Origin: an uncultured bacterium
GTDB lineage: Bacteria; Patescibacteriota; JABMPQ01; CAVVCK01
Direction: 5' to 3'
Length of the DNA stretch: 64,000 bases
Assembly: GCA_963746775.1 (NCBI GenBank)
Contig: CAVVCK010000002.1
Location: 431,656-495,655, forward strand
This document shows positions 4,021 through 56,948 of this stretch, in pieces. The notes under the pieces are model-generated. The model was not told where the DNA came from. It searched no databases and saw nothing but the letters and a program-made list of their open reading frames with translations. The translations under genes and the position numbers were made by a program. Each line of letters begins with the position of its first letter. Positions within the stretch are counted from its first letter, which is position 1.

Positions 4021-4112
4021 AAATTCCTAATTTCTAATAAAATTTTTAATATCCAATGACAAATTATTTTTGAAATTTGACATTTGGATTTTTATTAGGA
4101 ATTAGAAATTGG
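4021..4112. repeat. Family-A word hairpin (TAGAAAT/GGAAAT words), long imperfect inverted repeat
   Basis: ATTCCTAATTTCTAATAAAA...TTTTATTAGGAATTAGAAATT outer arms and ATCCAATGACAAATT...AAATTTGACATTTGGAT inner arms fill the spacer between two GT4 genes. Confidence 0.6.
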
Positions 4113-4164: not shown

Positions 4165-5304
4165 TTACTTTTTATCTTCAAGCACACTTAACACGCTCTT
4201 TGCACATTCTTCCCATCTAAACTCCTTCACTCTCCCTAATCCTTTATTAATCAACCTTTGTCGCAAATTTTTATCAACTATTCCATTATAAACACCCAAA
4301 GCCAAATCATCAATATTATAAGGATCAATCAACAAAGCTGCATCTTGACATACTTCCGGTAAAGAAGAAACAAAAGAAGTTACTACCGGCACTCCACAAG
4401 CCATCGCCTCTAGTGCCGGAAAACCAAAGCCTTCATAAAAACTAGGATAAACAAATAATTTGGTTAAATTATATAAATAAGGCTTATCTTCTTCTTCTAT
4501 AAATCCTGGAAAAATTATATCTTTTTTATATTTTGATTTTTCCCAATTTTCAAATATCTTTTTATAGCACCAAGCTTTCTCCCCCGCAATAACTAATTTA
4601 TTATTAATTTTATTCTGGTCTCTTAATTTTTCATAAGCAGATATAAGCCCTACAATATTTTTGCGCGGCTCTATTGATCCTAGTGATAAAATAAAATCTT
4701 TTGGTAAATTATATTTTTTTCTAATTTCTTCCAATTTATTGTCGTTATTACAAACCTTTAAATTCTCATTTATTCCAGAATATATTATCCTGATTTTTTC
4801 TTCCGAAATGCCATATGTTAAAACTAGGTCATCTTTAGTAGCTTCTGATACTGCAATAATGTAATCATTGTCTTTAGCTAATTTCTTGGGGTTTACCACT
4901 CTATGCCAGAGTCTTCTCTTTAATGAGTAGAAATGGGAATAATGAGAAAAGGCTAAATCATGGAAAGTAATAATGTTTTGGCAATTTTTATCTAATGAAT
5001 AAAAAGAAATATTTGGTGCAAAGAATATATCACAATCTAAGATTTTACTTATTTTGGGATAGTTAAATAAAACAAAAGACAAATTTAATAATTTATTAGG
5101 TATTTTTGTTTTTTTTATCTCTACATTAGGAAAATCAAAGGCCTTATCTATATCAAAGGAAGGACCCTTAAATGAATTAAAAAAAAGCTTATATTGATTT
5201 TCTTGATCAATTTTAAAAAGATTAGTTAGAAGATTCAGGGTATAACCCTCTACTCCTGTTCTTTTACCTTCAGATAACATGCGAATATCTATACCTATTT
5301 TCAT
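4165..5304 (-). CDS. Glycosyltransferase, GT4 family
   Basis: 379 aa. YPSFYEGFGFPALEAMACGVPVVTS motif. Confidence 0.85.
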   Translation of the reverse strand: MKIGIDIRMLSEGKRTGVEGYTLNLLTNLFKIDQENQYKLFFNSFKGPSFDIDKAFDFPNVEIKKTKIPNKLLNLSFVLFNYPKISKILDCDIFFAPNISFYSLDKNCQNIITFHDLAFSHYSHFYSLKRRLWHRVVNPKKLAKDNDYIIAVSEATKDDLVLTYGISEEKIRIIYSGINENLKVCNNDNKLEEIRKKYNLPKDFILSLGSIEPRKNIVGLISAYEKLRDQNKINNKLVIAGEKAWCYKKIFENWEKSKYKKDIIFPGFIEEEDKPYLYNLTKLFVYPSFYEGFGFPALEAMACGVPVVTSFVSSLPEVCQDAALLIDPYNIDDLALGVYNGIVDKNLRQRLINKGLGRVKEFRWEECAKSVLSVLEDKK

Positions 5305-5358
5305 TTATTTTTAGCTAATTTATCTTATTATATTAAATAAATATTTTATATTCAACAT

Positions 5359-5390
5359 AAATAGCCTAAATATGAATATTTAGGCTATTT
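5359..5390. terminator. 14-bp perfect stem-loop (AAATAGCCTAAATA tgaa TATTTAGGCTATTT)
   Basis: Read directly. It lies between the structured RNA region and the start of the GT4 gene. Its role (terminator versus spacer hairpin) is uncertain. Confidence 0.4.
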
Positions 5391-5414
5391 TAAACTATTT
5401 TTCACAAAAAAACC

Positions 5415-5443
5415 TTGACATTATTACTATTATGTGTTATCCT
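5415..5443 (+). promoter_or_regulatory. Sigma70-like promoter TTGACA-N17-TATCCT with TGn extended -10
   Basis: TTGACA at 5415-5420, TG at 5435-5436, TATCCT at 5438-5443. It points into the GC-rich structured region. Confidence 0.5.
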
Positions 5444-5449
5444 TTATTG

Positions 5450-6022
5450 TTTGTTCATTTACAAAATTTCCTTTTCTCTTTATAGCCCTAAAATTTAAGG
5501 CTTTAATGAGGAAAGGAGGTAGCATGAGTAGCTACCCGAGTGGGTTTGTCTAACAATAGGCAAAAATGCGAACCAGACCAAGATTCGACGGGGCGTCGAG
5601 GTCTGGTTGAACTTATTTTCCCCGTTAAACCTCTAACTGACAGAAGAAAGGAGGTTAACCCTGATTAAATCAGATTATGGCATGACGGCTTGCCATTTTC
5701 TGAAGAGCAAGAATAACCGTCAAACCCCCTGCATATTAAGGAGGTAAAATGCAGGTACACAAACGCTGGTTAGCAATGCTAACTAGCGCGATCTGAGAAA
5801 ACGCCACTCAGATCGTACAGAGGCGGTTCCCTGGGAGTTACCGCCGGGCGAAAAACTCCCAAACGGCCACGCTCAAGGCCACACCGAGACAGGCGATCTC
5901 GGCATTGAGCACAGGGGGCAAGCACCACATCGATCTTTTGCTTCGCCCCCACCCTTTTCAGAAAATATAATTAAATTGTATTTTGTGAAAATTAAAAAAT
6001 CACGCCTTAGGCGTGATTTTTT
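5450..6022 (+). ncRNA. Unclassified large structured RNA (about 570 nt). Strand is assigned from the promoter/terminator pair and is not certain.
   Basis: 210 of 420 nt are G+C in 5521-5940, against 18-30% in flanking lines. More than 10 directly readable helices, two pseudoknot-type pairings and three AAGGAGGU boxes. No credible ORF. See findings. Confidence 0.6.
5994..6022. terminator. Intrinsic terminator, A6-ATCACGCC-tta-GGCGTGAT-T6 (bidirectional geometry)
   Basis: GC-rich 8-bp stem flanked by an A-run and a T-run. Confidence 0.75.
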
Positions 6023-6048
6023 ATTATCTATTATTTTATTCAAAGTAC

Positions 6049-6069
6049 AGACAGGTTTCAAACCTGTCT
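6049..6069 (-). terminator. Stem-loop AGACAGG tttcaaa CCTGTCT directly after the stop of the Wzz-like gene
   Basis: Read directly. A covarying paralogue lies at 9390-9410. Confidence 0.5.
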
Positions 6070-6073
6070 TACC

Positions 6074-6785: not shown

Positions 6786-7904
6786 CTAACTATATGTGCT
6801 TCTAATTTTCTCTTGGTATTTACTATACTCTTCTTCCACATAATTCTTAATCTTTTCTTTAAATAATTCAATATCATATTGCTTGGCATGTTCTCTAATC
6901 GCTTCTGGATCATATTTTTCCGCATCAAATTCTCTAATCTTATCAACTAATTTCCAAGGAGTTTGTTCGTCAAAAAATTCTCCTGTTATCCCTTCTTTAA
7001 TAGTCTCCCTGGCTCCGCCTTTGCGTAAAGCTATAACCGGCCTGCCCGATGCCATAGCTTCTACGGCCGATATGCCAAAGTCTTCTTCCTGAGGATATAT
7101 CAAAGCTCGGCAAGATGATAAATATTTGCTTTTTTCCTCATCACTTAATGGTCCTAGAAATTCTATATTTTTCTTGGCTTTTTTCTTTAAATTGTCATAC
7201 TCTTCTCCCGTACCAATTATTTTTAAAGGATATTCTAAGGCGTTAAAAGCTTCGACAGCCAAATCAACACGCTTATATGGCCTAAGCCTGGATACAATTA
7301 AAAAGTAATCCCCCACACTTTTAGAAACATAAAATTTATCCGTTTCAACTGGAGGATAAATAATATCACTTTCTTTCCCATAATATTTTTTAATTCTATG
7401 AGCTACAGTTTTGGAATTAGCAATATATTTGTCTACTCTATCAGCTGCCACCCTATCCCATTGCCTTATTCTATTTAAAACTAAAGGGAGCATTCTTTTA
7501 ATAACTGCCGGCTGTTTTAGTTCTTCTGTATAGCTATGCGTATCATTCCATAAATACCTAGTTGGTGAATGGCAATAACTAATATGTAGCGTATCCGGCT
7601 GTACAATCACGCCCTTCGAATAAGCTGAGCTATCAGATAAAACCACATCATAGCCTGATAGATCTAATCTTTCGATTGCAGCTGGCATTAAACTTAAATA
7701 CCATTTATATTGGCCGGATCCTCCGGGTAATTTTTGAATAAAGGAAGTTCTAATATCCATATCTTCAAAAAGCCCCCTAGTCTCTTTCTTGTCATAAGTT
7801 AGAGTATAGACTGGGGCCTTAGGATATAGCTCGTGGAATATTTCTAAAACTTTTTCTGCTCCACCAACTTGGTTTAGAAAATCATGTACTAAGGCAACCT
7901 TCAT
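6786..7904 (-). CDS. Glycosyltransferase, GT4 family
   Basis: 372 aa. PQEEDFGISAVEAMASGRPVIA motif. Confidence 0.85.
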   Translation of the reverse strand: MKVALVHDFLNQVGGAEKVLEIFHELYPKAPVYTLTYDKKETRGLFEDMDIRTSFIQKLPGGSGQYKWYLSLMPAAIERLDLSGYDVVLSDSSAYSKGVIVQPDTLHISYCHSPTRYLWNDTHSYTEELKQPAVIKRMLPLVLNRIRQWDRVAADRVDKYIANSKTVAHRIKKYYGKESDIIYPPVETDKFYVSKSVGDYFLIVSRLRPYKRVDLAVEAFNALEYPLKIIGTGEEYDNLKKKAKKNIEFLGPLSDEEKSKYLSSCRALIYPQEEDFGISAVEAMASGRPVIALRKGGARETIKEGITGEFFDEQTPWKLVDKIREFDAEKYDPEAIREHAKQYDIELFKEKIKNYVEEEYSKYQEKIRSTYS

Positions 7905-9427: not shown

Positions 9428-9886
9428 AATAGGCAGGCTATAAGCCGAATTCTGTCTCATCCGCCATAGATTAACAGCGAAGGCGGATTGCCTTCATTGA
9501 AAACTACGGCGAATACTATGATCATCTATCTAGCCTTACTATTACTAGCAAGGTCATGCTTTTTATAAATTACACCAGATGGGGTTTACCCTATTATAAT
9601 GTTACCATTATAACCTGTGAGCTCTTACCTCACTCTTTTCACCATTGCCTGCCATAGCCTATAAAGGCGACGGCTGGCTGTATATGTCTCTGTGGCACTT
9701 TCCCTCACCCTATCTAGAAGATAGAGTGCAATTGCCGTTAGCAATCACCTTGTTTCAAAGTCCCAAGGATTAATAGAAAATCCTATGAGGTTTTTCTACT
9801 CTCGAATCCATAAGCTCTGAGGTGTTCGGACTTTCCTCCCCTTATTATTATATAAATAATAAGAAGCGATCATAAACCTGCCTACT
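9428..9886 (-). ncRNA. rnpB: RNase P RNA, bacterial type A
   Basis: The minus strand reads ...TAGGCAGG...GGGGAGGAAAGUCCGAACACC (CR-I), GGUGAAAAGAGUGAGGUAAGAGCUCACAG (CR-II/III region) and GACAGAAUUCGGCUUAUAGCCUGCCUA (CR-V plus the P1 3' strand). Confidence 0.9.
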
Positions 9887-9982
9887 ATAATAATAAAATA
9901 GCAAAGAAATTTATGCTATTATTAAAGTGGATTGGCTTATAACAAGCAATTTAGATAATATGTGAAAATTTTAACTACTCAT

Positions 9983-10010
9983 ATTATACTTATTTTAAGT
10001 CTTTTGTCAA
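9983..10010 (-). promoter_or_regulatory. Consensus promoter TTGACA-N16-TATAAT upstream of rnpB
   Basis: Minus strand has TTGACA at 10010..10005 and TATAAT at 9988..9983. Confidence 0.6.
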
Positions 10011-10935: not shown

Positions 10936-11370
10936 TTATTTCTTTAAGGCTTTATCTAAAACTAAATTTACCAGCCTGTCAGCTTCTTTATTTTTTTCTC
11001 TTCTTATATGTTTAAAAGTAACGGATTTAAAGCCCAAAGTCAAATTATGTATTTTGATAAAAAGCGGCTCTAAGTTCTTGTCTTTTACTCTATACTCTCT
11101 GTTCAGTTGTTTTACTACTAATTCACTATCTAAATAGCATAAAACCTCTATGGCTTTAAGCTTCTTTGCTCTTTCTAAACCTAAAATTAAAGCCCTGTAT
11201 TCTGCCTGATTATTTGTATTTATACCAATGTACTGTCCAATTTTAGCAATTATTTTTCTTTTAGAATTATAAACAACCGCCCCACAACCTGCTGGTCCTG
11301 GGTTACCTCTTGATCCTCCGTCTGAAAATATTATTAGTTTTTGGTTTTTCATAAATAAATACACTACCAA
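10936..11370 (-). CDS. RNase H (type 1, RNase HI family). True start is probably the MKNQK Met at 11352.
   Basis: IFSDGGSRGNPGPAGCGAVV...NNQAEYRALILGLE...DSELVVKQL. Confidence 0.8.
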   Translation of the reverse strand: MVVYLFMKNQKLIIFSDGGSRGNPGPAGCGAVVYNSKRKIIAKIGQYIGINTNNQAEYRALILGLERAKKLKAIEVLCYLDSELVVKQLNREYRVKDKNLEPLFIKIHNLTLGFKSVTFKHIRREKNKEADRLVNLVLDKALKK

Positions 11371-11531
11371 CCCTGGATATGATTGGTTTTTTAAATTTTA
11401 TTACTTTTATTTTAACTCAAAATTTATAAACACACAAACTGCTTGACTTGATAATTGAAAGTAATATTATACTAATTAATATCTAACTTTTTTCAGATAT
11501 TTTTTATTTATTTAATTTTAAAAACAAAAGG

Positions 11532-13827: not shown

Positions 13828-13860
13828 GATTTTTATTACTTAATAATTATTTTATAAAAC

Positions 13861-13940
13861 CATCCGCTTTATCCGCCAAATCCGCTAATCCGTAAACAAT
13901 AGATAACGGATTAGGCGGATTATTGCGGATAAGCGGAAAA
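13861..13940. repeat. Family-B word hairpin (ATCCGC/GCGGAT words), copy B1
   Basis: CATCCGCTTTATCCGCCAAATCCGCTAATCCGT...ACGGATTAGGCGGATTATTGCGGATAAGCGGAAAA. The left arm is nearly identical to copy B2. Confidence 0.75.
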
Positions 13941-14488: not shown

Positions 14489-15100
14489 TTATTTTTCTTC
14501 TATAAAATATTTCTTTAAGTCTTTTCTACTCTTCATTTCAGGTAGACAATTATCTATGAAGTTTTTGTAAGTATAATTCTTATGTGGGAATTGGCTTAAA
14601 ACTATCTCTTTATTACATAAAGTCCCTGATCTTTGATTTACATAGTCTAGATAGTTAGACCAAGGATATTTATTGAGGTTATGGGTTATTTTGTGTAGTT
14701 TAGGATTTAGATTAATGTAGGCAGAGAGCCAGAGAAGATATTCGTTGGAGTTAATGCGGATGGATTTGAAGCGGTCCTGGAATAATATACCGGATTTATC
14801 ATGTTTTTTATTAAAATAAATGGTATAGCTCGTTCCTAACCTATACATAAATTCTGAAATAGCATTATCTGACGTTTGTTTTAATATGAAATGATAATGA
14901 CTAGGATTTAGGCAGTAGGCTATAAATTCTACTCCCAAAGACTCAGCCTTTTTCAGAAAGGCTGAGTCTTGAGATTTTAAGCTTCTTATGGTTTTAATAA
15001 AGCGAATATAATCTCTTGTTTCTAAAAAAATATTTCTTTTATCTACACCACGGTTGTAGATATGATAATACTCGTTATTAGAAAATATAGTCCTCCTCAT
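14489..15100 (-). CDS. IS200/Y1-transposase-like protein of the REP-associated tyrosine transposase (RAYT) type
   Basis: YHIYNRGVDKRNIF...AYCLNPSHYHFIL (HUH)...FQDRFKS...YINLNPKLHKI...YPWSNY. Confidence 0.75.
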   Translation of the reverse strand: MRRTIFSNNEYYHIYNRGVDKRNIFLETRDYIRFIKTIRSLKSQDSAFLKKAESLGVEFIAYCLNPSHYHFILKQTSDNAISEFMYRLGTSYTIYFNKKHDKSGILFQDRFKSIRINSNEYLLWLSAYINLNPKLHKITHNLNKYPWSNYLDYVNQRSGTLCNKEIVLSQFPHKNYTYKNFIDNCLPEMKSRKDLKKYFIEEK

Positions 15101-16932: not shown

Positions 16933-17847
16933 CTATCTAGCTAACTCCGCCGCCCCCACAACACCTGCATCTTTACCCAGCTTTGCTTTTTTAATTTCTA
17001 TCTTTCTCTTTTTAAAAAATACATTTTTGGTCGTTTCTTTCTTGGCTAATCTAAAAAGTAATTCAGATTTTCCTAAGCCCCCGCCAATTACTATTAAATC
17101 AGGATCTAAAATATTTACTAAATTAGAAATGCCCACGCCTAGATATTCGCCTGCATTTTGATATATCTTATAAGCTACACTTTTTGTACCTTTATCCATA
17201 GCTTCTTTTTCAATCTCTAAAGCGCTCTTCTTTTGTTTAGTTTTTTTATAATATTCATTTTCAATACTAGTACCAGAAGCATAGGCCTCCAGACAGCCTT
17301 CCTGCCCACAGCTGCATTTCCTACCACCATATTTAACAATCATATGCCCAGGTTCAGAAGCAAAGCCCTGCCCTTGATACATTTGTCCATTCAAAATTAA
17401 TCCTCCGCCCACCCCTGTACCCAAAGTAATCCCCACCACGCTGGAAAAACCCTTGCCTGCTCCATAAGTAGCTTCTGCTAAAGTAAAACAATTAGCATCA
17501 TTAGCTATTTTTACTGTAATTTTTTTACTTTTTTTAAATTCAAAACCAAGCTTGCTTTCTAGTGTCTTGGCTACTGGAATATTTTTCCAGCGGGAAATAT
17601 TGGGTGAATGCACAATTATACCAGTCTTTGAATCTATCTGACCAGCAATACCAACCCCAATTTTTTCTATTTTATCTACCTTTAATTTTTTAAAACCGGC
17701 AATTATTTCATCTAACAAATGCTGAAAACTCTGCGTATTTTCAGTCTGAAATTCCACTTTGGAAACTAATTTACCGCTATTATTAACTAATCCCATAGCC
17801 GTTTTTGTGCCTCCTACATCAATGCCAATTGTATTGTTTTGTATCAT
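16933..17847 (-). CDS. ROK-family glucokinase
   Basis: GIDVGGTK N-terminus and the CSCGQEGCLEAYASG zinc motif. Confidence 0.85.
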   Translation of the reverse strand: MIQNNTIGIDVGGTKTAMGLVNNSGKLVSKVEFQTENTQSFQHLLDEIIAGFKKLKVDKIEKIGVGIAGQIDSKTGIIVHSPNISRWKNIPVAKTLESKLGFEFKKSKKITVKIANDANCFTLAEATYGAGKGFSSVVGITLGTGVGGGLILNGQMYQGQGFASEPGHMIVKYGGRKCSCGQEGCLEAYASGTSIENEYYKKTKQKKSALEIEKEAMDKGTKSVAYKIYQNAGEYLGVGISNLVNILDPDLIVIGGGLGKSELLFRLAKKETTKNVFFKKRKIEIKKAKLGKDAGVVGAAELAR

Positions 17848-25060: not shown

Positions 25061-25429
25061 TTATTTTTTATTATCTATACTTTTTCCTAAAGTTTTCAGT
25101 TCTGTCCAAAGCATAACACCTATTTCATCGGCTAATTTTAAAGCAATAATGTAATCTTCTTTTTTTATATAATTCTCATTTAAAGAGAAATAGAGAAGGT
25201 ACTTAGACTCTTTTAATGATCCATAAGATATTTCAAGAAAATTCAACTGGACAGCTCTTTTCCTTCTAGCAAAACCTTCAATATAATTAAGTATCACCGA
25301 GAGTAATGATCTTCTTATCTATGAAACAACTCCATATAATTCTGCCTTTGGATATCCCCTGGTTAATTTATACATTGAATGAACATATTCATCCATTTTT
25401 AATTTTAACTCATCTTGAAACTTAGGCAT
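25061..25429 (-). pseudogene. Four-helix-bundle protein gene (23S rRNA IVS / Avd-like family) interrupted by one in-frame TAG at 25319..25321
   Basis: Own translation: MPKFQDELKLKMDEYVHSMYKLTRGYPKAELYGVVS*IRRSLLSVILNYIEGFARRKRAVQLNFLEISYGSLKESKYLL... The track shows only the 78-aa distal part (GTG start). Confidence 0.75.
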
Positions 25430-27510: not shown

Positions 27511-27870
27511 TTATTTTGAATCTTTGATATTTTTTATTTCAGTCCAAAGCAGAGCACCTATTTCATCTGCTAATTCCATTCCCTTTTTATATTGATTTTC
27601 GTTAATAAATCCTTCCATTAAAGAAAAATGTAAAAGATATTTAGTTTCTTTCAATAATCCATACGACATCATTGAAAAATTTCTCTGATTACCCTTATTA
27701 AATCTTGCAAAACCTTCTATATAATTAAGTATTACTGACAATGAAACTCGTTTAAGTTAAGAAACTATACCGAATAATTCTTCTTTTGGAAAATTGTATG
27801 ATATCTTATAGCAATAATGAGCATATTGATCCATTTTCTTTTTCAATATTTCTCTATAATTCTCTTTCAT
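27511..27870 (-). pseudogene. Second four-helix-bundle protein gene interrupted by one in-frame TAA at 27757..27759
   Basis: Own translation: MKENYREILKKKMDQYAHYCYKISYNFPKEELFGIVS*LKRVSLSVILNYIEGFARFNKGNQRNF... The track shows only the 76-aa distal part (TTG start). Confidence 0.75.
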
Positions 27871-29599: not shown

Positions 29600-29670
29600 C
29601 TGTTTTTGACCTGCTTATCTGTAATATTTAAAAAGCGGACTTAGCGGATTTTAGCAGATACGCGGAAAAA
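29600..29670. repeat. Family-B word hairpin, decayed copy B4
   Basis: The right arm AAGCGGACTTAGCGGATTTTAGCAGATACGCGGAAAAA is intact. The left arm is degenerate (CTGCTTATCTG in place of CCGCTTATCCG). Confidence 0.55.
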
Positions 29671-29729
29671 TATATTATTTAATATTTTTATTTTACTACT
29701 TATAGAGCCTTGGTGCAATGTTGAAAAGT

Positions 29730-44829: not shown

Positions 44830-45153
44830 CTAAATTACGTTTTTACATTTTTTACAAATTCTTGTCTTCTTTTTATCTTGAATCTTTGTTCCAACTCTTA
44901 CTGGTTTATTGCACTTTGAACAAAATATCATAGCGTTAGAGCTAGATATAGGCGCATTAAATTCAATTCTCTCACCTTTTTCCTTGCCTTTTCTTTGCTT
45001 TAAATGTTTGTACATCTTATTTACACCTTCAACTACAACTTTGTTATTTTCAGAAAATATCTGCAAAACTTTGCCTTTTTTACCTCTATCTTTTCCATTA
45101 ATAACTACTACTATATCGTCTTTTTTTATCTTCATAATATTTATACTTAACAT
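44830..45153 (-). CDS. rplX: 50S ribosomal protein L24 with a C-terminal CxxC...CxxC extension (likely start at 45135)
   Basis: MKIKKDDIVVVINGKDRGKKGKV, then CSKC...CKKC. Confidence 0.9.
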   Translation of the reverse strand: MLSINIMKIKKDDIVVVINGKDRGKKGKVLQIFSENNKVVVEGVNKMYKHLKQRKGKEKGERIEFNAPISSSNAMIFCSKCNKPVRVGTKIQDKKKTRICKKCKNVI

Positions 45154-45172
45154 AAATCATTAACTATGTAAT

Positions 45173-45250
45173 TATCCGCTTTATCCGCCAAATCCGCTAT
45201 ATCCGTAAACTACAAATAGCGGATAAAGCGGATTCTGCGGATAGACGGAA
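45173..45250. repeat. Family-B word hairpin, copy B2, between rplN and rplX
   Basis: ATCCGCTTTATCCGCCAAATCCGCTATATCCGTAAAC...AGCGGATAAAGCGGATTCTGCGGATAGACGGAAAA. Confidence 0.75.
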
Positions 45251-45280
45251 AAAACATACTGATAAATTTTATAATCTACT

Positions 45281-45649
45281 CTATAATACTTCTGGTGCTA
45301 ATGAAATAATTTTCATATAGCCAGCTTTTCTAACTTCACGAGCAATTGGACCAAATATACGACTTCCTTTTGGCTCTTTTCCATCCAATATAACTGCTGC
45401 ATTATCATCAAATCTAACAAAACTACCGTCTGCTCTAGTAAACTCTTTTCTTTGCCTGACAATCACAGCCTTTACTACTTCCTTTTTCTTAACTATACCA
45501 CGAGGTAGAGCTTCTTTTACTGAGGCAACTATAATTTCTCCTATTCCAGCATAAGTTTTTTTATTCCCACCAGGTAGAACTTGAATACACTTAATTACTT
45601 TTGCTCCGGTATTATCAGCTACTATTAGCTTTGTTCCTTTTTGTATCAT
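45281..45649 (-). CDS. rplN: 50S ribosomal protein L14
   Basis: [17 protein letters not shown]. Confidence 0.95.
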
Positions 45650-48996: not shown

Positions 48997-49037
48997 TTAA
49001 TAATTGATAATAAATAATGAAAATGAAATTAGTTATT

Positions 49038-49096
49038 TAGAAAATAGAAATTTGTAATAGATATTAGAAACTAGAATTACAAATTTCTATTTTCTA
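49038..49096. repeat. Family-A hairpin A4: perfect 21-bp stem TAGAAAATAGAAATTTGTAAT / ATTACAAATTTCTATTTTCTA with a 17-nt loop, between rplW and rplB
   Basis: Arms at 49038-49058 and 49076-49096 verified base by base. Confidence 0.85.
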
Positions 49097-50832: not shown

Positions 50833-50853
50833 AATAAAATAATATTAAATTAA

Positions 50854-50914
50854 TTCCGCGCTATCCGCAAACTAAGTTATTGCGGATGATACGGATAAAG
50901 CGGATTACGCGGAT
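50854..50914. repeat. Family-B word hairpin, copy B3 (short left arm), in the rpsJ-rplC spacer
   Basis: TTCCGCGCTATCCGCAA...TTGCGGATGATACGGATAAAGCGGATTACGCGGATC. Confidence 0.65.
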
Positions 50915-50951
50915 CAATAAATTACGTAAATTAATATTTACCTATCAAAAA

Positions 50952-51001
50952 CCGGAAATTTAAGAAGCCAGAAAACATACGCCGGCTTCTAAAATTTCCG
51001 G
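50952..51001. repeat. 18-bp stem-loop CCGGAAATTTAAGAAGCC / GGCTTCTAAAATTTCCGG (one mismatch)
   Basis: Read directly. In the rpsJ-rplC spacer. Confidence 0.7.
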
Positions 51002-51072
51002 ACCTTGCTTACTTTAAATTTACTAAATAACAATAAAATAATTATTTAGTAAATTCTTTAGCTTATACTTTT

Positions 51073-51096
51073 AAGTCCCGATTTTAATCGGAACTT
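51073..51096. terminator. Small stem-loop AAGTCCCGAT ttta ATCGGAACTT just after the rpsJ stop
   Basis: Read directly. One C/A mismatch. Confidence 0.4.
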
Positions 51097-51111
51097 TAAT
51101 TATAAACTATC

Positions 51112-52729: not shown

Positions 52730-52747
52730 ATGTTTTTTGGGCTTTTT

Positions 52748-52856
52748 CACAGTATTAATATACCAATTTATGCGAATTATACGAATAAATACTTGATTAG
52801 TATTATTAATATCAATTAGTATGCTTATCTCGAGTATTTTCGAGAGATTAGCATCG
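52748..52856. repeat. Family-C word element, copy C3
   Basis: AGTATTAATATACCAATTTATGCGAATTATACGAAT...GATTAGTATTATTAAT...GATTAGCATCG. Shares its ends and words with C1 and C2. Confidence 0.55.
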
Positions 52857-52861
52857 AAATA

Positions 52862-53191
52862 TTAGAAATCATCATCTAGATCTTCATATAGATATTGGGT
52901 TTCATTTTTTAAATCTTCATCAGTAGAATCGCCTGTTAAAAAATGATCATCTAGATTTTTTTCCTCTTCATTTTGACTAGCGTGCCAAATAGCTATATCT
53001 TTATTGATTTTCTCTACTAATTCTTCTTTAGACATTTCTCCTATAAAAACATTTTCTGAATTAGAGACTATTTTCTTATATTCCTTAATATCCATTAATA
53101 CATATGAGGGTTTACCTTCTTCTACAATAATATACTTACCACTAGAATTTTTTAATAGATCAATAATTTCGGAAAAATCTTTTGAATTCAT
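52862..53191 (-). CDS. Hypothetical acidic 109-aa protein between fusA and tuf. The N-terminal third resembles Phd/YefM-type antitoxin folds.
   Basis: SGKYIIVEEGKPSYVLMDIKEYKKI, then an acidic tail ending YEDLDDDF. Confidence 0.55.
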   Translation of the reverse strand: MNSKDFSEIIDLLKNSSGKYIIVEEGKPSYVLMDIKEYKKIVSNSENVFIGEMSKEELVEKINKDIAIWHASQNEEEKNLDDHFLTGDSTDEDLKNETQYLYEDLDDDF

Positions 53192-55498: not shown

Positions 55499-55503
55499 AT
55501 TTT

Positions 55504-55585
55504 CGATACTAATATACTAATTTATACGAATTATACTAATACAAAATTATTCGTATTATTAGTATTCATTCGTATATTGGCATCG
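55504..55585. repeat. Family-C word hairpin, copy C2, between rpsG and fusA
   Basis: CGATACTAATATACTAAT...TTAGTATTCATTCGTATATTGGCATCG. Both ends are nearly identical to C1. Confidence 0.7.
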
Positions 55586-55586
55586 A

Positions 55587-56054
55587 TTATCTTGCATAGT
55601 GTGCAAAAGCCTTATTGGCTATAGCCATTCTATGAACATCCTCTTTCTTTTTAACAGCACTACCTAAACCTTTGGAGGCTTCGATAATTTCAGAAGCTAA
55701 TTTTTGAGCCATAGGCTGACCCTTTTTGCCTCTAGCAACTTCAAGCATCCAGCGCATAGCTAGGGTGTTTTTGCGACTACCTCTAACTTCAAAAGGTATT
55801 TGGTAATTAGCTCCACCAATTCTGCGACCTTTAATTTCTAGTGTTGGAGAAACATTTTTCATGGCTTGATTAAAAACTGACATAGGATCTTTTTTGGTTT
55901 TCTCTGCTACAATATCAAAAGCATCATAAATTATAGATACAGCTACTGATTTCTTGCCACCTTTCATAATATGATTAATAAATTTGCCTATTAAAGCATT
56001 TTTATGTTTTGGATCTAGATATTCTTCTCTTTTATATACTTGTTTTTTTCGCAT
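55587..56054 (-). CDS. rpsG: 30S ribosomal protein S7
   Basis: GKKSVAVSIIYDAF...RRIGGANYQIP. Confidence 0.95.
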   Translation of the reverse strand: MRKKQVYKREEYLDPKHKNALIGKFINHIMKGGKKSVAVSIIYDAFDIVAEKTKKDPMSVFNQAMKNVSPTLEIKGRRIGGANYQIPFEVRGSRKNTLAMRWMLEVARGKKGQPMAQKLASEIIEASKGLGSAVKKKEDVHRMAIANKAFAHYAR

Positions 56055-56680: not shown

Positions 56681-56708
56681 ATTATAGTAAGCAAAAAAAA
56701 GATGTCAA
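56681..56708 (-). promoter_or_regulatory. Consensus promoter TTGACA-N16-TATAAT upstream of rpsL
   Basis: Minus strand has TTGACA at 56708..56703 and TATAAT at 56686..56681. Confidence 0.65.
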
Positions 56709-56745: not shown

Positions 56746-56782
56746 ATAAGATTATTTATCAAATAAAACCGAATAATCTTAT
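56746..56782. repeat. 11-bp perfect stem-loop ATAAGATTATT / AATAATCTTAT
   Basis: Read directly. Confidence 0.6.
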
Positions 56783-56784
56783 TT

Positions 56785-56948
56785 AAAAAATAGAAACTGG
56801 CTATATAGAAAATAGAAATTGGTAATAGAAATTAGAAAAATTGAAAATAGTTATGATATAATTCAAATGAAACAAAAGCTATTTTCTAATTTCCAATTAC
56901 TATTACTATCTTCCAATTTCTAAATAGCTAATTTCAATTTCATTTTTT
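56785..56948. repeat. Family-A word hairpin, copy A5 (about 65-nt arms)
   Basis: AAAAAATAGAAACTGGCTATATAGAAAATAGAAATTGGTAATAGAAATTAGAAAAATTGAAAATAG...CTATTTTCTAATTTCCAATTACTATTACTATCTTCCAATTTCTAAATAGCTAATTTCAATTTCATTTTTT. Confidence 0.65.

What the first reader, a model, noticed from the sequence alone, without database searches (positions are those of the whole stretch)
45173..45250. A family-B hairpin sits inside the spc operon between rplN (L14) and rplX (L24)
L14 and L24 are normally separated by a dozen bases. Here a 127-bp spacer is filled by the 78-nt GC-rich B2 hairpin. A stable 30+ bp stem in the middle of a polycistronic r-protein mRNA should either attenuate or terminate transcription, create an RNase III-type processing site, or be a recent insertion tolerated in an essential operon.
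Basis: seen in the sequence. Interest (0 to 1): 0.5.

Follow-up and report, generated by a model that had tools for sequence, protein, structure and literature searches.

The report
Repeat hairpin inserted between L14 and L24
The hairpin between two ribosomal protein genes is real, but it is a lineage-specific inserted copy of a small dispersed palindromic repeat, not a conserved regulatory signal, in a tiny candidate-phyla-radiation (CPR) genome whose relatives carry similar repeats throughout their ribosomal operons.

Summary
rplN (45281-45649) and rplX (44830-45135), both on the minus strand, are 145 nt apart (127 nt if the longer ORF is used). The spacer holds an ~81-nt hairpin at 45174-45255. 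It folds at -44 to -47 kcal/mol as RNA (z about -7.5), equally well on both strands.

Each arm is an array of four 9-nt units (ATCCGCnnn / nnnGCGGAT). It matches copy B1 (13850-13935) end to end. Two further copies, one decayed and one truncated, lie at 29630-29675 and 50850-50916. All four are intergenic.

Six closest lineages (L24 79-85% identical) have a 10-nt spacer here, so B2 is an insertion.

It lacks a U-tract, has no downstream promoter, and differs from this genome's canonical terminators, so termination is unlikely. RNase III processing was not testable.

More distant CPR relatives carry unrelated hairpin repeats at the same junction. One sister clade has them at nearly every ribosomal-protein junction.

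A single-copy gene (14489-15100) resembles the REP-associated tyrosine transposases (RAYTs). It lies one gene upstream of B1, and B1 is 94% conserved in a relative with ~80% DNA identity.

Best reading: a REP/REPIN-like mobile hairpin tolerated in an essential operon. Mobilisation by the RAYT-like protein is inferred only.

The parts
45281..45649 (-). rplN (uL14), 122 aa, stop codon TAG at 45283-45281
   Evidence: NCBIfam TIGR01067, 160.9 bits against a cutoff of 111
44830..45135 (-). rplX (uL24), 101 aa. The true start is ATG 45135; the 107-aa ORF starting at 45153 is an over-extension.
   Evidence: TIGR01079 aligns from residue 7. All relatives start MKIKKDD.
45136..45280 (-). L14-L24 spacer, 145 nt. 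In the six closest lineages it is 10 nt. Only the last ~7 nt (AAATATT) still resemble the ancestral spacer.
45174..45255 (-). B2 element, about 81 nt. In sense orientation it reads U-run, 5' arm, loop, 3' arm. It is homologous to B1 over this stretch only.
   Evidence: alignment A1; folds; the rest of the spacer is unique in the window
45174..45205 (+). Arm of four ATCCGC units at 9-nt spacing (45174, 45183, 45192, 45201). This is the 3' arm of the sense RNA. It is the best-conserved half of the family: 37 nt are 97% identical to B1.
45206..45218 (+). Loop, TAAACTACAAATA
45219..45249 (+). Arm of GCGGAT units (45219, 45228, 45237, then CGGA at 45246). This is the 5' arm of the sense RNA. Two pairing registers one unit apart are possible.
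   Evidence: I6 and I11
13850..13935 (-). B1, the family copy at the end of the operon recJ / RAYT-like gene / DEDD (DnaQ-like) exonuclease. Its 117-nt intergenic region is 110/117 identical in relative L163, whose flanking DNA is ~80% identical.
29630..29675 (-). B3, a decayed copy in which one arm is recognisable and the other is eroded
50850..50916 (.). B4, a copy with 2 + 4 units in the S10-L3 gap. Its orientation is ambiguous and may be inverted.
14489..15100 (-). Gene for a Y1 HUH transposase-like (RAYT-like) protein, 203 aa. It is a candidate mobiliser of the hairpin repeats; that role is inferred.
   Evidence: Pfam PF01797, 36 bits. NCBIfam REP_Tyr_transpos, 39 bits, below the cutoff of 80. 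An AlphaFold2 model (pLDDT 80) best matches 4ER8, the E. coli RAYT bound to a REP hairpin, at E=1.7e-7. H68, H70 and Y128 are invariant in 30 homologues.

Best explanation
B2 is one copy of a small non-autonomous dispersed palindromic repeat ('family B'). The element is about 81 nt, and each arm is an array of 9-nt ATCCGCnnn units. It entered the 10-nt rplN-rplX spacer, together with about 55 nt of unique AT-rich sequence, after this lineage split from its closest known relatives.

It is co-transcribed within the spc mRNA, where it forms a stem-loop of about -44 kcal/mol. It does not terminate transcription. The likely consequences are modest. It lengthens the L14-to-L24 distance from 10 to 145 nt, which would weaken tight termination-reinitiation coupling. 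It could also serve as a 3'-exonuclease barrier or a double-strand RNase substrate, as REP, ERIC and Correia elements do in other bacteria. In kind it is a REP/REPIN/MITE-like selfish or commensal element tolerated in an essential operon.

The most likely means of spread is excision and insertion of the hairpin as single-stranded DNA by the genome's single-copy RAYT-like Y1 HUH enzyme (14489-15100). The conserved 'home' copy B1 sits at the end of that enzyme's operon.

Shown: the structure, family membership, insertion status, absence of terminator and promoter signals, and the RAYT-like fold. Inferred: co-transcription, the effects on the mRNA, and mobilisation by the RAYT-like protein (about 0.35 on its own).
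For: - The hairpin is far stronger than chance on both strands.
- The family has four intergenic copies in 64 kb against 0.02 expected. B1 and B2 are homologous over ~81 nt, with the similarity ending at the element edges.
- The junction is empty in six lineages with 79-85% L24 identity, on 13 contigs, each with a 10-nt spacer.
- The same junction is independently occupied by unrelated hairpin or MITE-like repeats in other CPR lineages. L001 and L040 carry the GTAAC family, L041 a GTTCATG-unit hairpin, and L002 an element with perfect 20-nt terminal inverted repeats (TIRs) present at least 3 times in 20 kb.
- The other hairpin insertions in the window's ribosomal cluster (L18-L6, L2-L23) are likewise absent from L032 and L035.
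- No terminator or promoter call falls in the spacer. Consensus promoters lie elsewhere, at 56708, 52729 and 51128.
- A truly conserved regulatory hairpin in the same cluster, upstream of rplC at 50942-51009, is retained with compensatory changes in the window, L032, L001 and L040. B2 is not.
- A RAYT-like gene is present, with the catalytic motifs conserved and its best fold match to a RAYT bound to a REP hairpin.
- The synteny recJ / Y1 gene / exonuclease / B1 / cyclophilin is conserved in L163 and L164. B1 is 94% identical there against ~80% for the flanking DNA.
Against: - No target-site duplication could be established. There is only a post-hoc AAGTAT match.
- About 55 nt of the insertion is not part of the repeat and has no identified source.
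- Only 64 kb of a 547-kb genome was visible, so copy number and orientation bias for family B are unknown.
- The RAYT-like gene's own flanks are 9 and 4 nt with no repeat. A homologue in another context (L162) has no adjacent unit-array hairpin.
- The protein scores below the NCBIfam RAYT cutoff.
- The arms are tandem 9-nt units, not the REP doublets of classical REPINs.
- There are no expression data, so a regulatory effect cannot be excluded. The strong conservation of B1 shows that at least one family member is under selection.
Confidence: 0.65

Rival explanations
1. B2 has been co-opted as an intra-operon RNA element. It could be a processing site (RNase III or another double-strand-specific nuclease) or a decay barrier. 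Either would uncouple the rplN-proximal and rplX-distal parts of the spc transcript and retune their relative expression.
For: The near-continuous duplex of about 29 bp is long enough for RNase III-type recognition. In a sister clade nearly every ribosomal-protein junction carries a 60-100 nt hairpin element that abuts the stop codon and ends 2-13 nt before the next start. The occupying family differs between genomes at the same junction, which hints that 'a hairpin here' may itself be favoured. B1 is more conserved than the flanking coding DNA.
Against: B2 is absent from all six closest lineages. It shows no strand asymmetry: the sense fold is -41.3 and the antisense fold -41.5. There is no covariation evidence for B2 itself. 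The presence of the enzyme was not examined.
Confidence: 0.18
2. B2 is a transcription attenuator or terminator inside the spc operon.
For: It is a very stable GC-rich stem in an AT-rich transcript. B1 lies at the end of an operon and is followed by GGUUUUAU.
Against: In the sense RNA the U-run lies 5' of the stem, and the 3' side reads AAUUACAU. The scan makes no terminator call and finds no promoter of 9/12 or better downstream on the gene strand. Essential genes (rplX, rplE, rpsN, rpsH, rplF and others) follow. Canonical terminators in this genome have stems of about 11 bp flanked by A and T runs.
Confidence: 0.05
3. The element works at the DNA level. It would be an inverted array of 9-bp units acting as a multi-site binding platform for a DNA-binding protein, for example a nucleoid-associated protein or the Y1 enzyme acting as a regulator.
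For: The 6-nt core is strictly periodic with variable 3-nt spacers. One arm is far better conserved than the other across B1, B1 in L163, and B2. Both strands fold equally well.
Against: Several unrelated unit sequences and periods (7-11 nt) coexist in this genome and its relatives, which argues against one specific binder. No cognate binder is identified.
Confidence: 0.07
4. B2 is an assembly artefact, with a repeat-induced mis-join placing the hairpin in the spacer.
For: B2 is seen in a single assembly only. Palindromic repeats can confuse assemblers.
Against: Both gene ends are intact and collinear with relatives. The spacer also contains unique sequence. The family is independently assembled in L163 and L164. 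Analogous insertions occur at the same junction in four other independent assemblies.
Confidence: 0.03

Closest known systems
REP / REPIN elements with their RAYT (REP-associated tyrosine transposase), as in Escherichia coli and Pseudomonas fluorescens (PMC5581495, PMC3116915)
   Same: - Both are short, extragenic, hairpin-forming repeats dispersed between co-directional genes and co-transcribed inside operons.
- The genome carries a single-copy, syntenic, vertically inherited Y1 HUH gene whose model best matches the E. coli RAYT-REP complex 4ER8.
- A family copy (B1) sits in the first sizeable extragenic space next to that gene and is unusually conserved.
   Different: - The arms are tandem arrays of 9-nt units, not two inverted REPs that each carry their own small palindrome and a 5' GTAG.
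- There is no BLAST similarity to any E. coli genome.
- The protein scores below the NCBIfam RAYT cutoff (39 against 80 bits).
- The gene's immediate flanks carry no repeat.
- The host is a Patescibacteria genome of about 0.55 Mb. No paper in the searched library links RAYT or REPIN to that group.
ERIC/IRU, Correia (NEMIS) and Rickettsia palindromic elements: MITE-like repeats co-transcribed with genes. This comparison rests on my own knowledge plus the review PMC3184786.
   Same: These are 70-150 nt palindromic insertions found between genes of operons. They form long RNA stems and, in those systems, alter mRNA processing or stability (RNase III cleavage for Correia, orientation-dependent decay for ERIC).
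   Different: No sequence relationship is evident. No TIR plus target-site-duplication signature was demonstrated. The unit-array architecture differs. No functional data exist for B2.
Rho-independent terminators and attenuators
   Same: A stable GC-rich stem-loop in a transcript.
   Different: There is no 3' U-tract in the sense strand. The stem is about three times longer than this genome's canonical terminators. Essential genes follow without a promoter.
Ribosomal-protein autoregulatory leaders, for example the S8 site at rplE and the L4/S10 attenuator in E. coli (PMC3616713)
   Same: A structured RNA inside a ribosomal-protein operon.
   Different: B2 is not conserved even among close relatives. 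The conserved hairpin upstream of rplC (50942-51009) behaves as such a leader should.

Membership tests
REPIN-RAYT system | A single-copy, vertically inherited RAYT gene (Y1 HUH transposase fold with the HUH motif and catalytic Tyr) | tested here: inconclusive
   There is one Y1_Tnp gene in the 64 kb (Pfam 36 bits). Its best fold match is 4ER8, a RAYT bound to REP (E=1.7e-7). H68, H70 and Y128 are invariant. Synteny is conserved in L163 and L164. However, NCBIfam REP_Tyr_transpos gives 39 bits against a cutoff of 80, and copy number in the other 480 kb is unknown.
REPIN-RAYT system | Repeats lie in the extragenic space immediately flanking the RAYT gene and are abundant genome-wide (the flanking-16mer criterion, PMC5581495) | tested here: inconclusive
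   The immediate flanks are 9 and 4 nt with no repeat. B1 occupies the next extragenic gap, one gene downstream. A 37-nt stretch of the B1 arm recurs in B2 at 97% identity. Genome-wide frequency is not measurable from the window.
REPIN-RAYT system | The element is a doublet of inverted REPs, each an imperfect palindrome with a conserved 5' tetranucleotide (GTAG in E. coli) | tested here: not met
   The arms are tandem 9-nt ATCCGCnnn units without internal palindromes. There is no BLAST match to any E. coli genome.
MITE (miniature inverted-repeat transposable element) | Terminal inverted repeats plus a target-site duplication, and a related autonomous IS | tested here: inconclusive
   The inverted arms are present. 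No convincing flanking direct repeat was found, only a post-hoc 6-nt AAGTAT match. No IS with matching ends lies in the window.
Intrinsic (Rho-independent) terminator | A GC-rich stem followed directly by a U-tract on the transcribed strand | tested here: not met
   The sense 3' flank is AAUUACAU, and the U-run is on the 5' side. The scan does not call it.
Conserved cis-regulatory RNA of the spc operon | Present at the orthologous position in relatives, with the structure preserved | tested here: not met
   There is a 10-nt spacer in six lineages with 79-85% L24 identity. No Rfam family matches, apart from weak generic miRNA-hairpin hits.
RNase III substrate | About 20 bp or more of near-continuous dsRNA, the enzyme encoded in the genome, and cleavage observed | not testable with these tools
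   The duplex-length criterion is met, with a core of about 29 bp. The enzyme gene was not seen in the 64 kb. No RNA data are available.

The most novel reading that the evidence does not exclude
The unit-array hairpins (family B here; GTAAC and other families in relatives) may be the REPIN equivalents of a Patescibacteria-wide, domesticated RAYT-like Y1 enzyme. They would not be mere passengers. In some lineages they have replaced essentially every intercistronic spacer of the S10-spc-alpha cluster, fitted exactly between stop and start codons. That would make them a lineage-specific 'punctuation' of polycistronic mRNAs, through processing, decay barriers, or stop/start juxtaposition for reinitiation. 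B2 would then be an early stage of that colonisation.
Probability: 0.2. Interest if true: 0.75.

Novelty: new variant of a known kind. Interest (0 to 1): 0.45.

Why it matters
Taken alone, B2 is a tolerated repeat insertion, and it corrects the idea of a built-in attenuator in the spc operon.

The context is more interesting. Ultra-small CPR genomes are thought to be streamlined. Even so, this one and its relatives carry several families of hairpin repeats inside their most essential and highly expressed operons, and in a sister clade nearly every junction is occupied. A RAYT-like gene is widespread in the group, with 2,292 homologues found.

If the link between that gene and the repeats is real, it extends REPIN-RAYT-type systems to Patescibacteria. 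It would also offer a natural experiment on how translational coupling and mRNA processing cope with 60-150 nt stem-loops between ribosomal protein genes.

Tried and rejected
- **Exact look-up of window proteins.** Look-ups of uL14 and the 107-aa uL24 (P0001) to find the source contig both returned 'not on record'. The cluster look-up gave no name, only a 547,535-bp contig.
- **Metagenome scan.** The degenerate pattern ATCCGCnnnATCCGCnnnATCCGC was too permissive. A few contigs (L083, L085, L103) do show GCGGATnnn/ATCCGCnnn hairpins, but in the opposite arm arrangement.
- **Viral scans.** Exact scans of viral contigs for family-B and GTAAC cores gave 0 hits.
- **BLAST.** B2 has no match in E. 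coli genomes or plasmids.
- **Rfam.** Nothing matched at gathering score except RNase P elsewhere in the window. Around B2 there were only weak generic miRNA-hairpin hits.
- **Strand test.** A comparison of G.U against A.C pairs for B2 showed no difference between strands, so it cannot say whether RNA or DNA is the selected form.
- **Target-site duplication.** The search was inconclusive.
- **Sequence search of the PDB.** The Y1 protein and its 30-sequence profile gave no relevant or no hits. Only the fold search connected it to RAYT/IS200-family structures.
- **RAYT homologue in a different context.** L162 has no adjacent unit-array hairpin, which weakens a general adjacency rule.
- **Resemblance to the E. 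coli REP core.** The unit GCGGATAAAG looks like the E. coli REP core GCCGGATAAGG. This was recalled from memory, was not supported by BLAST, and is treated as coincidence.

Full report
**1. Observation**

The window is AT-rich (31% G+C), and almost all genes are on the minus strand. The ORF at 45281-45649(-) is uL14 and the ORF at 44830-45153(-) is uL24. S17, L5, L6 and L18 are in the expected order.

The uL24 profile aligns from residue 7, and every relative begins MKIKKDD. The real start is therefore ATG 45135, and the spacer is 145 nt (45136-45280) rather than 127.

The spacer folds at -46.6 kcal/mol as RNA, against -23.4 +/- 3.1 for shuffles (z -7.6). As ssDNA it gives -25.6 and -25.1 on the two strands, with z about -7.5. 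The 94-nt element forms 35 pairs. It is 45% G+C in a 31% background.

**2. Anatomy**

On the plus strand the element reads as follows:
- four ATCCGC cores at 9-nt spacing (45174, 45183, 45192, 45201);
- a 13-nt loop;
- GCGGAT cores at 45219, 45228 and 45237, then CGGA at 45246;
- an A-run.

In the sense (minus-strand) RNA a U-run therefore precedes the stem, and AAUUACAU follows it. Because the arms are tandem units, two pairing registers one unit apart are possible (I6 and I11).

The motif ATCCGCnnnATCCGC occurs 13 times at four sites, all intergenic, against 0.02 expected. Gaps of 45 nt or more make up only about 11.5% of the window.

B2 aligns end to end, over about 81 nt, with B1 (13850-13935). 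The similarity stops at the element edges. The remaining ~55 nt of the spacer is unique in the window. B3 (29630-29675) is decayed, and B4 (50850-50916) has 2 + 4 units.

**3. Comparison with relatives**

The window's own genome is not retrievable; it is known only as a 547,535-bp contig.

Six lineages with uL24 79-85% identical all have a 10-nt spacer (TTTTAATATT or a near variant) between the L14 stop and the L24 start. They are P0002, P0003, P0004, P0005, P0008 and P0011, on 13 contigs from groundwater, sediment and other metagenomes. The window keeps only the last ~7 nt of that spacer. B2, with its flanks, is therefore an insertion of about 135 nt specific to this lineage.

The other hairpin-filled junctions of the window's cluster are also compact in L032 and L035:
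- L18-L6, 103 nt, family C;
- L2-L23, 185 nt, family A.

**4. The same junction elsewhere**

More distant CPR genomes have independently acquired different elements at the L14-L24 junction:
- L001 and L040 carry the 'GTAAC' family;
- L041 carries a GTTCATG-unit hairpin;
- L002 carries a MITE-like element with perfect 20-nt terminal inverted repeats (TIRs), present at least 3 times in 20 kb.

In L001, L040 and L041 nearly every junction from S10 to SecY holds a 60-100 nt unit-array hairpin. At least six families are involved, with units of 7-11 nt. The occupying family differs between genomes at the same junction. The elements abut the upstream stop codon and end 2-13 nt before the next start.

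Across 31 genomes the median L14-L24 spacer is 14 nt.

**5. What B2 is not**

It is not a canonical terminator or attenuator.
- It has no 3' U-tract, and the scan does not call it.
- No promoter-like site of 9/12 or better lies on the gene strand in the spacer. Perfect or near-perfect consensus promoters lie before rpsL, tuf and rplC.
- The genome's evident terminators are ~11-bp GC stems flanked by A and T runs (see also 32299-32233).

It is not a conserved ribosomal-protein leader. The hairpin plus U-run upstream of rplC (50942-51009) is retained with compensatory changes in the window, L032, L001 and L040. That shows what conservation looks like here. B2 has none.

No Rfam family matches. 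There is no similarity to E. coli genomes, plasmids or viral contigs.

**6. How it may spread**

Annotating the rest of the window revealed a 203-aa Y1_Tnp protein (14489-15100, Pfam 36 bits). Its features are as follows.
- NCBIfam's REP-associated tyrosine transposase (RAYT) model hits it at 39 bits, below the cutoff of 80.
- In 30 homologues H68 and H70 (the HUH motif) and Y128 (in AYINLNP) are invariant.
- An AlphaFold2 model (pLDDT 80) best matches 4ER8, the E. coli RAYT bound to a REP hairpin (E=1.7e-7). IS608 and ISDra2 TnpA follow at about 2e-4.
- There are 2,292 homologues, mostly from Patescibacteria.

The gene sits in the operon recJ / Y1 gene / DEDD (DnaQ-like) exonuclease. B1 fills the next intergenic gap. 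The same synteny holds in L163 and L164. There the proteins are 63-90% identical and the DNA about 80%, yet the 117-nt B1 gap is 110/117 identical. B1 is thus old and constrained. B2 shares its best-conserved arm, with 37 nt at 97% identity.

This resembles a REPIN-RAYT arrangement (criteria from PMC5581495), but several points count against it:
- the gene's immediate flanks lack repeats;
- the arms are not REP doublets;
- a homologue in another context (L162) has no adjacent unit-array hairpin.

No paper in the searched library links RAYT or REPIN to Patescibacteria. I therefore treat mobilisation by this enzyme as an inference, at about 0.35.

**7. Mechanistic verdict**

B2 is most likely a REP/REPIN/MITE-like hairpin repeat that inserted into the rplN-rplX spacer and is read through as part of the spc mRNA.

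The expected effects are inferred by analogy with REP, ERIC and Correia elements, from my own knowledge and the review PMC3184786. They are loosened L14-to-L24 translational coupling and a possible decay barrier or double-strand RNase site. The sense and antisense strands fold equally well, so there is no signature of RNA-level selection on B2 itself.

A co-opted processing role remains the main rival. The near-saturation of junctions in the sister clade keeps it alive.

**8. Limits**

Only 64 kb of the genome was visible. Relatedness was judged from single-protein identities. No expression data exist.

Noticed in passing
window 14489-15100 (-): A single-copy RAYT-like Y1 HUH transposase gene is embedded in a conserved operon, recJ / Y1 gene / DEDD (DnaQ-like) exonuclease. 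Its best structural match is the E. coli RAYT-REP complex 4ER8. The family has 2,292 homologues, mostly in Patescibacteria.
   Followed up: yes
L001:3277-16000; L040 and L041 whole loci: In a sister clade (uL24 68-74% identical) almost every junction of the S10-spc-alpha cluster holds a 60-100 nt hairpin whose arms are arrays of 7-11 nt units. At least six families are involved. The elements fit exactly between stop and start codons, and the occupying family differs between genomes at the same junction.
   Followed up: partly
L001 GTAAC-family copies (e.g. 4224-4288, 7611-7694, 9924-10000, 11338-11422): All 11 copies lie in the same orientation as the genes. In 11 of 11 the antisense RNA folds 3-14 kcal/mol better than the sense RNA, because A.C mismatches in the sense strand become G.U pairs in the antisense strand. 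This has no explanation so far.
   Followed up: partly
window 50942-51009 (-), within the S10-L3 gap 50833-51111: A conserved hairpin followed by a U-run lies upstream of rplC and is retained with compensatory changes in L032, L001 and L040. A near-consensus promoter lies at 51128-51099. It may be an unannotated ribosomal-protein leader or attenuator. No Rfam family matches.
   Followed up: partly
window 42973-43058, 52747-52842, 55501-55595: Family C hairpins, built of ATACGAAT/ATACTAAT units, lie in the L18-L6, tuf-upstream and EF-G/S7 gaps. A family-C-like hairpin also occurs in relative L032 (19602-19711).
   Followed up: partly
window 49020-49096, 35555-35680, 56766-56935, 63022-63160, 4022-4110, 37501-37595, 39141-39267: Family A hairpins are AT-rich, with units of about 11 nt such as AGAAATTGGTAAT. 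One lies in the L2-L23 gap, with a perfect 21-bp stem at 49038-49096.
   Followed up: no
window 5305-6073: This 769-nt stretch has no ORF, is 39% G+C against 31% for the window, and is predicted to be highly structured (-267 kcal/mol). No Rfam match was found even at a permissive threshold.
   Followed up: partly
window 52862-53191 (-): A small Phd/YefM-antitoxin-like gene sits between fusA and tuf. It is conserved at the same place in L001 and L032.
   Followed up: no
L002:8859-8989, 9878-10002, 17002-17127: A MITE-like element with perfect 20-23-nt TIRs (ATCCCACACATAACTTGCAC) and an ~85-nt interior is repeated at least 3 times in 20 kb of another CPR genome. One copy is at its L14-L24 junction.
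   Followed up: partly
L085:~1130-1400, L103:~300-440, L083:~50-330: Unrelated, higher-GC metagenome contigs carry hairpins whose arms are GCGGATnnn / ATCCGCnnn 9-nt units in the opposite arm order. L083 also has one built of ACAGGATnn units. Unit-array hairpins may therefore be widespread beyond CPR.
   Followed up: no
window 25061-25297 and 27511-27741 (-): Two small genes of the '23S rRNA intervening sequence protein' family (PF05635) are interspersed with NiFe-hydrogenase subunit genes.
   Followed up: no
L001:2585-2720: A pure tandem array of about 17 copies of GTTCATGG/GTTCATAG lies between tuf and rpsJ. It uses the same unit that forms hairpin arms in L041.
   Followed up: no
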